From: Euglena gracilis
Taxonomy: Eukaryota
Length of the DNA stretch: 64,000 bases
Direction: 5' to 3'
Assembly: GCA_039621445.1 (NCBI GenBank)
Contig: CP154954.1
Span: forward strand, 23,448,954 to 23,512,953
Position numbers and translations under genes: made by a program. The notes under the pieces are model-generated. The model saw only the letters and a list, made by a program, of their open reading frames with translations. It searched no databases and was not told the origin of the DNA. This document shows positions 284-39,400 of this stretch, piece by piece; the stretch's first letter is position 1; each line of letters starts with the position of its first letter.

Positions 284-958
284 ATGTCCTCCTGCTCGAG
301 GGAGGGCAGGAGGAGGTCGACGGGGCGCAGGCCGGCGTGGTCGCAACAGAACAGGTTGGCCCCCCGGTCCAGCAGCGTGGACGCTCCCACGCCGCTGCGG
401 CGGAACACTCGGGAGGCATTCGCCCGACGCGGAGGGATGGGAGGAGCAGCAAAACCCATTTCTGGTTCCAAAATGGTTCCAGAAATTGTTTGGCAATTAT
501 TTATTATTTATATTTGGAAAAAGAATGGATGCAGCGAAGCGCTTCGTACTGCCTGAGCGGCTCAGCAAGGCTTTCCAAGAGACGGTAAATGCTGCTGCTG
601 GGTGCCTGAAGGCGAAACACCTACATGAACATCAACGCTCAATGTAGCAACGTAATTCTCGAATACTTGAGTTCTTGCCCTGCAAAGTTCTTGTTCCTCA
701 GTTTTGTTCTTTTTACAGATACAGGATCGCCGGATGAAACGGGGACGGTGCGGTAGCGCCGGCGTGGCCACCACCTCCCGCAGCTGGAGGTCGTCGTACT
801 GGTGGTGGTTGGTCGCCGGCGGCAAGCCCCGGGGCCGGCCCCAATCCCGGGCCCAGCCACGCCCCGCCGTTTCCCGGGGGCTTGGCCAGCAGGTGCAGGG
901 CGGTGCGGCCGTCGGCGTCGCGGAAGTTGGCCGGCATTTGCCCCTCCTGGATGCCGGT
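284..958 (-). CDS. Ankyrin module 2 (exons 888-958, ~768-817, ~284-394)
   Basis: Translates ANFRDADGRTALHLLATNHHQYDDLQLREVVA...GASTLLDRGANLFCCDHAGLRPVDLL, similar to module 1; requires the 818-887 nonconventional intron. Confidence 0.8.
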
Positions 959-36479: not shown

Positions 36480-39400
36480 TTATGGCACGCTGCTGGCACC
36501 GCGCCAGATGCGCACCGTCTTGTCATGAGAGCCAGCCACAGGGGGCCGCAGAGCAAGTGGCAGTGCAAATAGACCCACAGCAACACAGCGGTTTTTTTTT
36601 TAATTCTGCACCGTTCTCCATTCAGGACCAGCTTTGGATCGCCTCCCCAGCCCCCCCCCCATTCTACACCAAAGCATCAGCATGCAGCTTGTCGAGGCGC
36701 CCTGGCCCGACACAAACGACAGGCTGTCGGGGCAGACCGCGACGCTGGTGACGTCCCCGGTGTGCCCTTTGGCCACGCCCAAGACCTCCCCTGCAAAGAC
36801 ACGGGGGACCGGGGCCGTCAGTGGCGGGCCAAAGGCACGGAACCGCCATGCCACGAGGTGTCTCTGTGCGTAGGGGGAGCCACGCCGCTGTTGGCACCGC
36901 TGGGTGGCGCGTTGACCAGCGGCGAGGATGCTCTGCGCCACACACCCCGCAGCCATCGGGTTCTTTGCCGAGGGCAGCGGAGGGGGGTGGCAAGGGGCCA
37001 CACCCGAGAACGGGCTCCAGATCCGCAGGGTGCGGTCGAAGCTGCCGGACACGACGTACGCCCCGCTGGGGGCGATGGCGACGCAACTGACGTCCCCGGC
37101 GTGCCCCTCCAGCACTGCCAGCAGCTCTCCTGAAACACCGGCATGCAGAGAGACAGACAGGCAGACAGACAGCTAGCCAGGCAGCCAGGCAGCCAGGCAG
37201 CCAGGCAGACAGGCAGACATCCCATCAACAAAAAAAAAGCAAAAATATCCAGTTTCAAAAGAAAAAATCTGCTGTACGTTTCCACAAATATATGGTGCAT
37301 CTGTACTGGAACGACCTTGACCTTGTTTGCCATGCACTGAAAATTGTTGCAGAGCCCCTGGGGGGTATTGGGACGTTGTGGGACATATTCTCATGGGTGC
37401 TAAGACTGGGCAATGTGCATACCAGTCTGTCGGTCCCAGACCCGGATGGTCTTGTCTTCCGACCCGGACACAATGTGGCCGCCGCCGCGCGATATTGCCA
37501 CACAGGTGACGTAGTCGCTGTGACCTTGAAGCACGTGGGCCAGCTGCCCTGTGCGAGGGGATGCAGTGGTCCGCCAACTTCTGGAAACACTGGCTTCGGG
37601 TGGCGCGGATCGCCAAACCGATTTTTGCATTTATTTGACATTTTTTGGCTGTTTTGAAACCCACCTGAAAGGCCACAAAATTTTAGGTTCAGAGGGGTGA
37701 GTGGCAGATTTGGGCCAAAACCTTCCGGACGTGGTTTTGCGCGGTTCTCCGTCTAAAAAATTTCCGATTGTGTGTGAATTGTGTGATTTGGGAATGCATT
37801 AGAACTAAGTATTAGAATTAACTCTCTGACCTCACAGCTGGTATACCCCCCTCCATCCCTCTCCATTAATTGTGTCTCTGCAAACCCCGTCTCCCTCCCA
37901 ACCCAACTCATAAAAGAAGGCCAAGCGTGCTCAAGCGTGACAAGTCAGCTGTTGGCCTCTTGAGCAGGTACTGTGCGTTTCATTTTAAGCGAGTGACCGC
38001 CTACGTCGTGTCTTGGTCCCCACCCAACCCCATGCCAGCTCCTCAATGGTGTTTTTAAATTAATGTCGGCCTGGTTAGGCGGTTAACCTCCTAAAACAGA
38101 ATTGTTGGTGGATGCAAATATTTTGTGGGTGTTGGCTCATACTGGATGCTGCAAGTGCAGAGTTTCATCAACTAGTCAAGTTTGCTTTTGATTTTGGGCC
38201 ATTTTAGACAGGAACCATTTTCTATCCAAGAGCGTTGGCGAAGGCAGGATATCATCGGGTGGCTGCCCACGTCGTCAGGGAGTTCTCCAGCTACCATTGG
38301 CCATGGTGTTATTGTACCTCATTTCAGAGACCCCAGCAGGCGCTGACGTCTGGCCAATGCTGGTCAGACACAGGTGAGGAGTAGGGTAACACCACCAGGA
38401 CGCCACCATGTTTCTTATTCACTGCATACAGATTCCCGCCTACACTATTCGCCAAGCACTCACCACATTACACACACAACAGGTGGATTCCCTCCTACAA
38501 ATCATCAACTGTTTGTGTTATGGTAGGCGGTAATCCGCGTACCATTCTTTGTTTTCACTTTTAGACGGCAATCCGCGTACAAGTTTATTCTACGCGGATA
38601 TGCACCTGAACAATTCATGCTGTTATCTGACACCTCTTGTTTCATTTTAGGCGGTTATCCGCGTACACTTGTAATATTCATTCGTTTCTCAAATACCGTT
38701 TAACACACAGTCACACCCATGTCACACCCATTCAAAATCAGTGTCCTTTCGACCATTCCAAACTTCTTAGGTGTCCCGCCTAAACCGCGGGACACCTAAG
38801 GGTGGGCTGAAAAAGCAAAAGGGTTTGCGGACGATAGCGGAAGATGGGAATCCCCCTGGAATGACATGGTTTGTTTGCAAAATTTTGAAACTTTTCCACA
38901 CTAGCCCAAAAATGGAAGAACGAGAAAAAAGGAGGTGCTTTGGGCATTTTGTCAGAATGTCAGCAAAACTGCTACTGTTCAAAGGGAAAATGCTGTAAAA
39001 CTCTCTGAAAGAACCATTCAAAAGGCCTTGAAATTTTGAGAACTTGGAGGAATCCTTCCGAAAACCCCCGAAATTTTTCGATTGCCACCACCAGCTGCTG
39101 AAATAGGCGCTTTTCTGTCCGTTTCTTGATTTATTTCTTTTTCGCCAGCTATCCCCGGAACCCTGGTTTTGGACCACCCACAGCGTTGGGCTCCAAGAGG
39201 AGGGGCCCGGGAGCTGCTTTCTTCCTTCTTGAAAAATTGACCTCAGCTTTCTGGCTGTTCATCAGGACAGTGGTTGAATTACACCTGTACCGCACCGCAG
39301 CCTGGCCTGGCAACTGACACATGCATTCCACAGCCGTCCCTGCAGACGACACCTTCACCACTCGCCCCGGGCGAACATGTCCATCTCCTTGGAGAGGAGG

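What the first reader, a model, noticed from the sequence alone, without database searches (positions are those of the whole stretch)
818..36707. Older nonconventional introns keep fossil 8-bp direct repeats in the TSD register
Seen: the 8 nt before the 5' stem arm versus the 8 nt after the 3' arm are CTGCTGGC/CCGCCGGC (6/8, intron 818-887), CCGGTGGC/TGGGCGGC (5/8, 29723-29874) and TGTCGGGC/TGGCTGGC (6/8, 36534-36707). In these three and in 29194-29624 the first 3 intron nt equal the first 3 nt of the next exon (GGC, GGC, GGC, CCC). Inference: a decay series from fresh MITE (44146) through short-stem introns with eroded TSD to none (44542-45325). The sample is small and GC-rich, so chance matches are not excluded.
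Basis: partly seen in the sequence, partly recalled or inferred. Interest (0 to 1): 0.8.

Follow-up and report, generated by a model that had tools for sequence, protein, structure and literature searches.

The report
Euglenid intron-end repeats and 8-bp-duplication MITEs
The short repeats seen at the ends of three unusual Euglena-type introns are really there, but they mostly reflect a motif shared by all these introns; the better clue in the window is a family of small transposons with the same ends as such introns and clear 8-base target duplications.

Summary

They exceed random and local-shift nulls (P about 1e-4). All six reader introns give 28/48 against 22.0 (fraction 0.058). Six conventional GT-AG introns in the same window give 26/48 in the same register.

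No RNA evidence could be obtained, so every intron here is predicted.

New support for an 8-bp register comes from transposons, not from the old introns:
- The 44146 element belongs to a MITE family with three independent copies. Their flanking 8-mers match 8/8, 6/8 and 5/8 (7/8 in the paralogous copy).
- A second CA...TG element has 8/8.
- A third element has 7/7 at a 7-nt register.

The MITE origin, TSD-like junction repeats, an 8-nt repeat in a recently gained intron and the N3/N5 splicing code are already published. The "decay series" is not shown.

The parts
818..887 (-). Predicted nonconventional intron (70 nt) in an ankyrin-like exon. N3 is GGC, the stem is CAAGCCCC/GGGGCTTG, N5 is CCGCC. 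Register-8 identity is 6/8.
   Evidence: The flanks read as ...DADGRTALHL and ATNHHQYDDL... in continuous frame. No RNA evidence.
383..769 (-). Additional candidate nonconventional intron (387 nt, 7-bp stem CACGCCG/CGGCGTG, N3 GGC). Register-8 identity is 4/8. Uncertain.
   Evidence: It was found by a scan that did not use flank similarity. The ankyrin-repeat spacing after splicing is longer than I recall for the repeat consensus, so the status is open.
29194..29624 (-). Predicted nonconventional intron (431 nt). N3 is CCC, the stem is CAATTT/AAATTG, N5 is ACCCC, next to a C9 run. Register-8 identity is 4/8.
   Evidence: Coding scores of the flanks are weak (2.7/2.4). The flanking exon has no homologue.
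29723..29874 (-). Predicted nonconventional intron (152 nt). N3 is GGC, the stem is the 9-bp CAGGCCTTT/AAAGGCCTG, N5 is TGGGC. Register-8 identity is 5/8.
   Evidence: The minimum-energy fold has exactly this terminal stem with N3 and N5 unpaired. Coding support is weak.
36534..36707 (-). Best-supported nonconventional intron (174 nt), inside a WD40 repeat. N3 is GGC, the stem is CAGGG/CCCTG, N5 is TGGCT. Register-8 identity is 6/8. The paralogous copy lies at 54382-54557.
   Evidence: The exon ends ...CPDSLSFVS and the next exon starts GSHDKTVRIW..., which together complete one WD40 repeat. Pfam gives a weak WD40 hit on the downstream piece.
44146..44391 (-). MITE-A copy (TE 44151-44388) plus 8 nt, in the N3-CAG...CTG-N5 configuration inside putative low-complexity coding sequence. 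It is 246 nt. If retained, the frame hits a stop 50 codons in. Flank identity is 5/8. Paralogue: TE 62002-62242 (7/8).
   Evidence: Splicing was not tested. The exon after N5 starts with C, not the purine preferred in PMC12501133.
44542..45325 (-). Only CAG/CTG (3 bp) pair. Register-8 identity is 2/8. Doubtful as an intron call.
1465..1751 (+). MITE-A copy (TE 1473-1743, 271 bp; its right end reads CCCCGG) with a perfect 8-bp duplication, GGGAGGAG, on both sides.
   Evidence: The T-scan gives 8/8 at T=8 against 3/7 and 4/9.
26070..26331 (+). MITE-A copy (TE 26078-26323, 246 bp) with flanks GTATGCAC/ATCTGCAC, 6/8.
   Evidence: The T-scan gives 6/8 at T=8 against 0/7 and 0/9.
26830..27316 (+). 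Second TIR element, MITE-B (TE 26838-27308, 471 bp, ends CATACATCTCT.../...AGAGATGTATG), with a perfect 8-bp duplication GTGGGCCC.
   Evidence: (I16). The T-scan gives 8/8 at T=8 against 4/7 and 4/9. It is a single copy in the window.
32111..33267 (+). Element C (1157 bp; TIR 22/23, CAGGGATTCCC...). It has a perfect 7-nt duplication CTGATTT. An 8-nt reading works only if the terminal C is shared.
   Evidence: This is the counter-example to a uniform 8-bp rule.
47543..47940 (+). Element D (398 bp; TIR 17/18, CAGGGTTCGATATAAGGA...). It is flanked by poly-C on both sides, so it says nothing about TSD length.
36791..43261 (-). Six conventional GT-AG phase-1 introns at the same place in successive WD40 repeats: 43261-42864, 42737-42502, 42375-41453, 41326-37549, 37422-37130 and 37003-36791. 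They were used as the control set.

Best explanation
The window is euglenid (Euglena-like) nuclear DNA with minus-strand genes that mix conventional GT-AG introns and nonconventional introns of the published N3-CAG...CTG-N5 type.

It also carries small non-coding DNA transposons (MITEs) whose ends are CA(GGG)...(CCC)TG and which make 8-bp target-site duplications. That end motif and that duplication length are what I recall as typical of hAT-type elements.

The splicing system cuts 3 nt before the 5' stem arm and 5 nt after the 3' arm. It therefore removes stem-to-stem plus 8 nt, which is the transposon plus one copy of its 8-bp duplication. An insertion of such an element into an exon would then be erased from the mRNA without a scar. 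This makes these MITEs a plausible source of nonconventional introns.

Most of it is a junction-anchored motif shared between introns (N3 = GGC before CA, exon 2 starting GGC).

Shown here: the sequences, the MITE family, its 8-bp duplications, and the size of the own-pair excess. Inferred: that the listed introns are spliced, that the MITE copy at 44146-44391 is spliced, and that old introns descend from such MITEs.
For: - MITE-A has three independent copies plus one segmental duplicate. Flank identity peaks at T=8: 8/8 (1473-1743), 6/8 (26078-26323), 7/8 (62002-62242) and 5/8 (44151-44388).
- MITE-B (26838-27308) gives 8/8 at T=8.
- In a permutation of five independent elements, 29/40 against mean 16.2, only 1 of 120 permutations reaches the observed value.
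- The code N3-CDG...CH'G-N5-6|R was defined genetically. The 5' spacer is fixed at 3 and the 3' spacer is 5, with 6 tolerated (PMC12501133; abstract and sections 5, 8 and 11 read).
- A strain-specific, hence recent, nonconventional intron in E. agilis gapC has 8-nt direct repeats, longer than in other introns (PMC4770533, passages).
- TSD-like junction repeats and CAG/CTG as the TIR are stated in a 2024 review (PMC11282704, passages).
- Own-pair excess in the predicted introns: 23/40 against 17.8 (6 of 120 permutations); with candidate 383-769, 27/48 against 20.7 (9 of 720). N3 = exon3 in 4 of 6 against 1.83 (24 of 720).
- The MITE-A copy at 44146-44391 is 246 nt, sits in sequence with some coding signal upstream (5.1) and none downstream (-0.3), and would introduce a stop if retained.
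Against: - No transcript evidence. No exact transcript-derived protein was found.
- Conventional introns give 26/48 in the same register.
- Element C has a perfect 7-nt duplication.
- The MITE-A flank at 44151 lies in a (GGGGC)n tract that differs between the two paralogous copies, so its 5/8 or 7/8 is soft.
- Copy 1473-1743 has CGG instead of CTG at one end and would not fit the published code.
- In old introns the identity sits mainly at positions 4 and 6-8 rather than evenly. That looks more like a motif than neutral decay.
- A whole-window register scan of 4,406 CA..TG stem>=6 pairs shows no excess at the true register: 38 with >=6/8 against 28-53 in 15 shifted registers.
- No transposase partner was identified.
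Confidence: 0.45

Rival explanations
1. Junction consensus only. The 5/8-6/8 matches come from sequence preferences at fixed positions around both splice junctions (N3 = GGC/xxC before CA, a purine and GGC at the start of exon 2) plus GC-rich composition. Nothing remains of any target-site duplication in the old introns.
For:
- Position 8 is C in 15 of the 16 listed 8-mers of the eight-element set. Mismatched identity at that position is 0.88.
- Conventional introns reach 26/48 through consensus alone.
- The 2024 review notes a pyrimidine|purine consensus at both ends.
Against: - Own pairs still exceed permutations modestly (fraction 0.058 for six introns; 6 of 120 for five; 9 of 720 for six with the extra candidate).
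- A preference at exon-2 position +3 has no stated role in the published code, which calls the spacers random.
- The same position being C on both sides is what a duplication would give.
Confidence: 0.35
2. Direct repeats come from repair, not transposition. New nonconventional introns arise by double-strand-break repair that leaves short direct repeats, as proposed for the E. agilis gapC intron. The MITEs in the window are unrelated bystanders.
For: Milanowski et al. 2016 offer this reading for the 8-nt repeat (PMC4770533, abstract and passages).
Against: - Repair gives repeats of variable length. Here four transposon insertions peak at exactly 8.
- The transposons share the CA...TG ends of the introns.
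Confidence: 0.1
3. Chance and selection by eye. With six hand-picked, unverified introns in GC-rich sequence, the matches mean nothing.
For: - The sample is tiny. Three of six were quoted, and the boundaries were set without RNA.
- The ab initio scan gives as many candidates on the plus strand as on the minus strand. Unaided calls are therefore unreliable.
Against: - Decoy and shifted-register nulls are exceeded at about 1e-4 even when all six are counted.
- 36534-36707 is independently supported by the WD40 repeat it interrupts.
Confidence: 0.1

Closest known systems
Euglenid nonconventional introns (Milanowski et al. 2014, 2016; splicing code of Nomura et al. 2025, PMC12501133)
   Same: Non-GT/AG borders. 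A stem starts at +4 and ends at -6, usually CAG/CTG. The spacers are 3 and 5 nt. Short direct repeats make the junction 'slidable' by 3-4 nt. The introns sit among conventional introns in the same gene.
   Different: Two of the six have CAA/TTG rather than CDG/CH'G, and two start the next exon with C rather than a purine. Removal from RNA was not shown here.
MITE-origin hypothesis with TSD-like junction repeats (PMC3935182; review PMC11282704) and the 8-nt repeat of the recent E. agilis gapC intron (PMC4770533)
   Same: The same model is in print: TIR = CAG/CTG, duplications at the intron/exon borders, and the longest (8 nt) repeat in the youngest intron.
   Different: The 2014 paper states that no transposable elements had then been identified in euglenid genomes (passage). 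In the papers and passages I read I saw no concrete euglenid MITE family and no explicit 3+5 = 8 = TSD argument. Supplements were closed. Here a family with 8-bp duplications is seen next to such introns.
Introner elements (Micromonas, Aureococcus, dinoflagellates, Amoebophrya; reviewed in PMC11282704)
   Same: Non-autonomous TIR transposons become introns on insertion. The removed piece is the element plus part or all of one duplication.
   Different: Introners are removed by the spliceosome, using splice sites carried by the element or co-opted from 3-5-nt duplications. Here the removal system is stem-measured and non-spliceosomal by current belief, and the duplication is 8 bp.
hAT-superfamily MITEs
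   Same: 8-bp target duplication and ends beginning CAG(G)G. The hAT terminal and target consensus are recalled from memory, not from a call.
   Different: No transposase or autonomous partner was seen. The recalled target consensus (T at position 2, A at position 7) fits 1 of 4 duplications. Other superfamilies with 8-9-bp duplications are not excluded.

Membership tests
Euglenid nonconventional intron | Borders are not GT/GC-AG | tested here: met
   All six reader introns start GGC, CCC, GCC or AGG and end in non-AG pentamers.
Euglenid nonconventional intron | Base-paired stem starting at +4 and ending at -6, bringing the ends together | tested here: met
   Stems of 8, 6, 9, 5 and 5+ bp in five of six, and only 3 bp in 44542-45325. 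The minimum-energy fold shows the exact stem for 29723-29874, a shifted variant for 818-887 and a different terminal pairing for 36534-36707. Fold energies are no better than shuffles (z 0.20, -0.75, 0.44).
Euglenid nonconventional intron | CDG...CH'G motif with complementary middle base, and a purine at the start of the next exon (PMC12501133) | tested here: inconclusive
   CAG/CTG in 4 of 6 and CAA/TTG in 2 of 6. Purine at the exon start in 4 of 6. The paper itself finds the pattern in 61.2% of nonconventional introns.
Euglenid nonconventional intron | Actually removed from the mRNA at these borders | not testable with these tools
No transcript-derived protein spans a junction. The only indirect support is the WD40 repeat completed across 36534-36707.
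MITE / non-autonomous TIR DNA transposon | Several dispersed copies with terminal inverted repeats and no coding capacity | tested here: met
   MITE-A lies at 1473-1743, 26078-26323 and 44151-44388 (plus the duplicate at 62002-62242). Copies are 238-271 bp and 68-73% identical between independent copies.
MITE / non-autonomous TIR DNA transposon | Target-site duplication of fixed length directly flanking the TIRs | tested here: met
   T=8 gives 8/8, 6/8 and 7/8 (5/8 in the other paralogue) for MITE-A and 8/8 for MITE-B, with low values at T=7 and T=9. No empty site was available to prove insertion.
hAT superfamily | 8-bp duplication, characteristic terminal pentamer and a hAT transposase in an autonomous relative | tested here: inconclusive
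   The 8-bp duplication is met. The terminal motif fits a consensus that I only recall. The transposase was not found: two Pfam calls, 20 ORF translations submitted, gave no transposase domain, and the window was not scanned exhaustively. Element C has 7/7 at T=7.
Introner-like transposon-derived intron | A family copy sits in an exon and is removed as element plus one duplication | tested here: inconclusive
   Copy 44146-44391 is in the N3/N5 configuration, is 246 nt long, and would give a stop if retained. The coding status of the flanks is weak (scores 5.1 and -0.3) and there are no RNA data.

The most novel reading that the evidence does not exclude
The nonconventional splicing system of euglenids is calibrated to the footprint of one class of DNA transposon. 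It measures 3 nt and 5 nt from the CA...TG stem because those transposons make 8-bp duplications. Every exonic insertion is then erased exactly from the mRNA. Most nonconventional introns, the majority of introns in Euglena, would be descendants of such hAT-like MITEs, with MITE-A/B as living examples.
Probability: 0.3. Interest if true: 0.8.

Novelty: new member of a known kind. Interest (0 to 1): 0.45.

Why it matters
The origin and removal mechanism of euglenid nonconventional introns are open questions. In E. agilis these introns are 71.8% of all introns (PMC12501133).

A concrete transposon family has intron-like ends and an 8-bp duplication that equals the 3+5-nt spacers of the splicing code. 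This turns the MITE hypothesis into a test that can be run directly on the published Euglena genomes and intron sets, and in the existing knock-in assay.

The narrower claim about fossil repeats in old introns adds little to what is in print. It is not established by this window.

Tried and rejected
- RNA evidence. The look-up of sequencing runs listed probable RNA contig runs and raw RNA runs, but no listed holder is on record as RNA. I did not resend it.
- Whole genome. None is held.
- Transcript-derived proteins.
  - The WD40 query returned only generic or paralogous WD40 proteins. The best Euglena entries were 54-64% identical over one repeat.
  - The exon at 29012-29194 had no hit among longer proteins.
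  - It had one hit in the representative library, which I judge spurious because the protein is a tandem repeat.
- Pfam. Two calls, 20 ORF translations submitted, gave nothing except a weak WD40 match.
- Enlarging the intron set ab initio.
  - A CA..TG/stem/coding-flank scan gave similar counts on the plus and minus strands (for example 34 against 31, and 21 against 18). I used it only as a source of decoys.
  - Stem-only solutions between WD40 exons were numerous and spurious. The true introns there are GT-AG.
- Whole-window register scan on 4,406 short-stem pairs: no excess at the true register.
- Two metagenome pattern scans for more MITE-A copies: 0 hits each.
- Earlier notes of this scan: nothing relevant.
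- My first hand count of 6/8 for 29194-29624 was wrong. The script gives 4/8.
- My first placement of the right end of the paralogous MITE was wrong. It was corrected.
- The eight-element permutation (40/64 against 25.9; fraction printed as 0.000 of 40,320) used the better-matching paralogue of the MITE. I do not lean on it.
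Full report
**What the window is**

The sequence has GC-rich short exons on the minus strand, separated by lower-GC introns and many microsatellites.
- One gene encodes WD40 repeats, with exons between 36486 and 43406. The best named matches are generic WD40 proteins, including two Euglena transcriptome entries at 54-64% identity over one repeat.
- Ankyrin-like exons lie at 286-417, 888-931 and 22669-22788.
- A tandem segmental duplication makes 35206-46130 and 53012-64000 about 98% identical. 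Everything in that span is therefore present twice.

**Checking the observation**

Read on the minus strand, the three quoted 8-mer pairs are exact: 6/8, 5/8 and 6/8. The four cases where the first three intron bases equal the first three exon bases are also exact.

I then asked whether this is more than chance against four different nulls.
1. Decoys. 142 false candidates on both strands passed the same CA..TG, stem>=5 and coding-flank filter.
   - They have mean 2.41/8, reach >=6 in 2.1%, and have N3 = exon3 in 2.1%.
   - Monte Carlo gives 1.2e-4 for 17/24 and 9.5e-5 for 28/48.
2. Shifted 8-nt registers of the same flanks, which keep local composition.
   - Means are 2.44 and 2.91.
   - Random draws reached the observed sums in 0 of 200,000 and at 6.3e-4.
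   - The 5' 8-mer of one of the three introns matches the 3' 8-mer of another at 5.0/8 on average. Own pairs (17/24) do not stand out from the permutation mean (15.7/24); one third of the six permutations reach it.
   - For six introns the result is 28 against 22.0, fraction 0.058.
   - For the five that are not the MITE it is 23/40 against 17.8, 6 of 120.
   - With one further candidate (383-769) it is 27/48 against 20.7, 9 of 720.
   - Exact N3 = exon3 holds in 4 of 6 against 1.83, 24 of 720.
4. Conventional introns.
   - The WD40 gene has six GT-AG phase-1 introns at the same place in successive repeats.
   - In the same junction-aligned register they score 26/48, fully explained by consensus (permutation mean 24.8; 210 of 720). 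They are paralogous and so not independent.

The conclusion is that a register-8 similarity exists. In the three quoted introns it is a motif common to the introns (nnGnnGGC at both junctions). The pair-specific part is small, and it rests on six unverified introns.

**Are they introns?**

I could not get RNA evidence.
- 36534-36707 is well supported. The exon before it ends ...CPDSLSFVS and the next begins GSHDKTVRIW..., which together complete a WD40 repeat.
- 818-887 is plausible from the ankyrin-like flanks and an 8-bp stem.
- 29194-29624 and 29723-29874 rest on frame continuity with weak coding scores. The second has a clean 9-bp terminal stem in the minimum-energy fold.
- 44542-45325 has only a 3-bp pairing.
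- Attempts to find more nonconventional introns ab initio failed. The filter passes about as many candidates on the plus strand as on the minus strand. A window-wide scan of 4,406 short-stem pairs shows no excess of flank matches at the true register.

**What else is there: transposons with the same ends**

The element at 44151-44388 is not isolated. Related copies lie at 26078-26323 and 1473-1743, with a segmental duplicate at 62002-62242.
- Independent copies are only 68-73% identical, so the family is not young.
- Flanks of 1473-1743: GGGAGGAG on both sides, 8/8. Neighbouring registers give 3/7 and 4/9.
- Flanks of 26078-26323: GTATGCAC/ATCTGCAC, 6/8. Neighbouring registers give 0/7 and 0/9.
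- Flanks of 62002-62242: 7/8.
- Flanks of 44151-44388: 5/8, with 6/7 at T=7. This last pair lies in a (GGGGC)n tract whose length differs between the two paralogous copies.

Other TIR elements in the window:
- A second, unrelated element (26838-27308), with ends CATACATCTCT.../...AGAGATGTATG, has a perfect 8-bp duplication GTGGGCCC.
- Element C (32111-33267, ends CAGGGATTCCC...) has a perfect 7-nt duplication. This is the counter-example.
- Element D (47543-47940) sits in poly-C and is uninformative.
- For the five independent elements, own flanks give 29/40 against a permutation mean of 16.2, and only 1 of 120 permutations reaches it.

The window therefore holds CA...TG-ended MITEs that mostly make 8-bp duplications.

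**How it most likely works**

The published genetic dissection fixes the 5' spacer at 3 nt and the 3' spacer at 5 nt, with 6 tolerated, around a CDG...CH'G stem (PMC12501133, sections 5, 8 and 11). The removed piece is therefore stem-to-stem plus 8 nt. For a transposon whose inverted ends form the stem and whose duplication is 8 bp, that equals the element plus one duplication, so the mRNA returns to its pre-insertion sequence.

The copy at 44146-44391 is in exactly this configuration on the gene strand. It is 246 nt long, and if retained it would bring a stop codon into the frame that has the best coding score. That score is weak, at 5.1 upstream and -0.3 downstream. This step is inferred, not shown.

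In the old introns identity is high at positions 4 and 6-8 and low elsewhere. It does not rise with stem length (my hand-computed rho is about 0.46, n=6). This is not the pattern of a simple neutral decay series.

**Comparison with what is known**

- The MITE origin was proposed in 2013/14 (PMC3935182, passages).
- The 2016 paper reports an 8-nt direct repeat in a strain-specific, recently gained nonconventional intron, longer than in other introns, and suggests break repair (PMC4770533, passages).
- A 2024 review draws CAG/CTG as the TIR with TSD-like repeats at the borders (PMC11282704, passages).
- The 2025 paper reports direct repeats at 84.4% of junctions and again mentions MITEs.
- In five literature searches and the passages read, I did not see a concrete euglenid MITE family with these ends, or the explicit equation of the 3+5 spacers with an 8-bp duplication. 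The 2024 genome note lists DNA elements at 4.60% without detail. Supplements were closed and may hold relevant tables.
- The hAT label rests on the 8-bp duplication and on a terminal consensus that I recall from memory. No transposase was found.

**Verdict**

- The decay series is not shown.
- The finding is a new example within a known hypothesis. Its most useful product is a sharp, cheap genome-wide test.

Noticed in passing
35206-46130 and 53012-64000: Tandem segmental duplication of about 10.9 kb at about 98% identity (period about 17.8 kb). It carries the 3' part of the WD40 gene, the nonconventional intron and the MITE-A copy.
   Followed up: partly
36791-43261, minus strand: Six conventional GT-AG phase-1 introns sit at the same position (after the ...TG of each WD40 repeat). 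This suggests the repeats multiplied as exon-plus-intron units.
   Followed up: partly
44120-44150 and 61975-62001: The (GGGGC)n tract beside the MITE-A copy differs in length between the two paralogous copies. It shifts the apparent duplication from 7/8 to 5/8.
   Followed up: yes
9116-9610: Large near-perfect palindrome (190-nt arms, 96% complementary) built from GCGCTTAAGCGC-type units. Related units occur at 7500-10200. No clear target duplication was seen.
   Followed up: no
52766-53012: A 19-nt tandem, self-complementary satellite (CATGATGG/CCATCATG units) lies at the junction of the segmental duplication.
   Followed up: no
21336-21685; 45449-45833; 50662-50867; 63300-63703: Long microsatellites: one trinucleotide array and several GT/AC-type arrays. 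They give false coding signals and many false stem pairs.
   Followed up: no
47543-47940 and 29189-29197: Homopolymer C runs flank a CAGGG-ended element on both sides and also abut the 3' end of intron 29194-29624. The cause is unknown.
   Followed up: no
1473-1743: This MITE-A copy has a perfect 8-bp duplication, but one end reads CGG instead of CTG. Under the published splicing code it should not be removable if it lay in an exon.
   Followed up: partly
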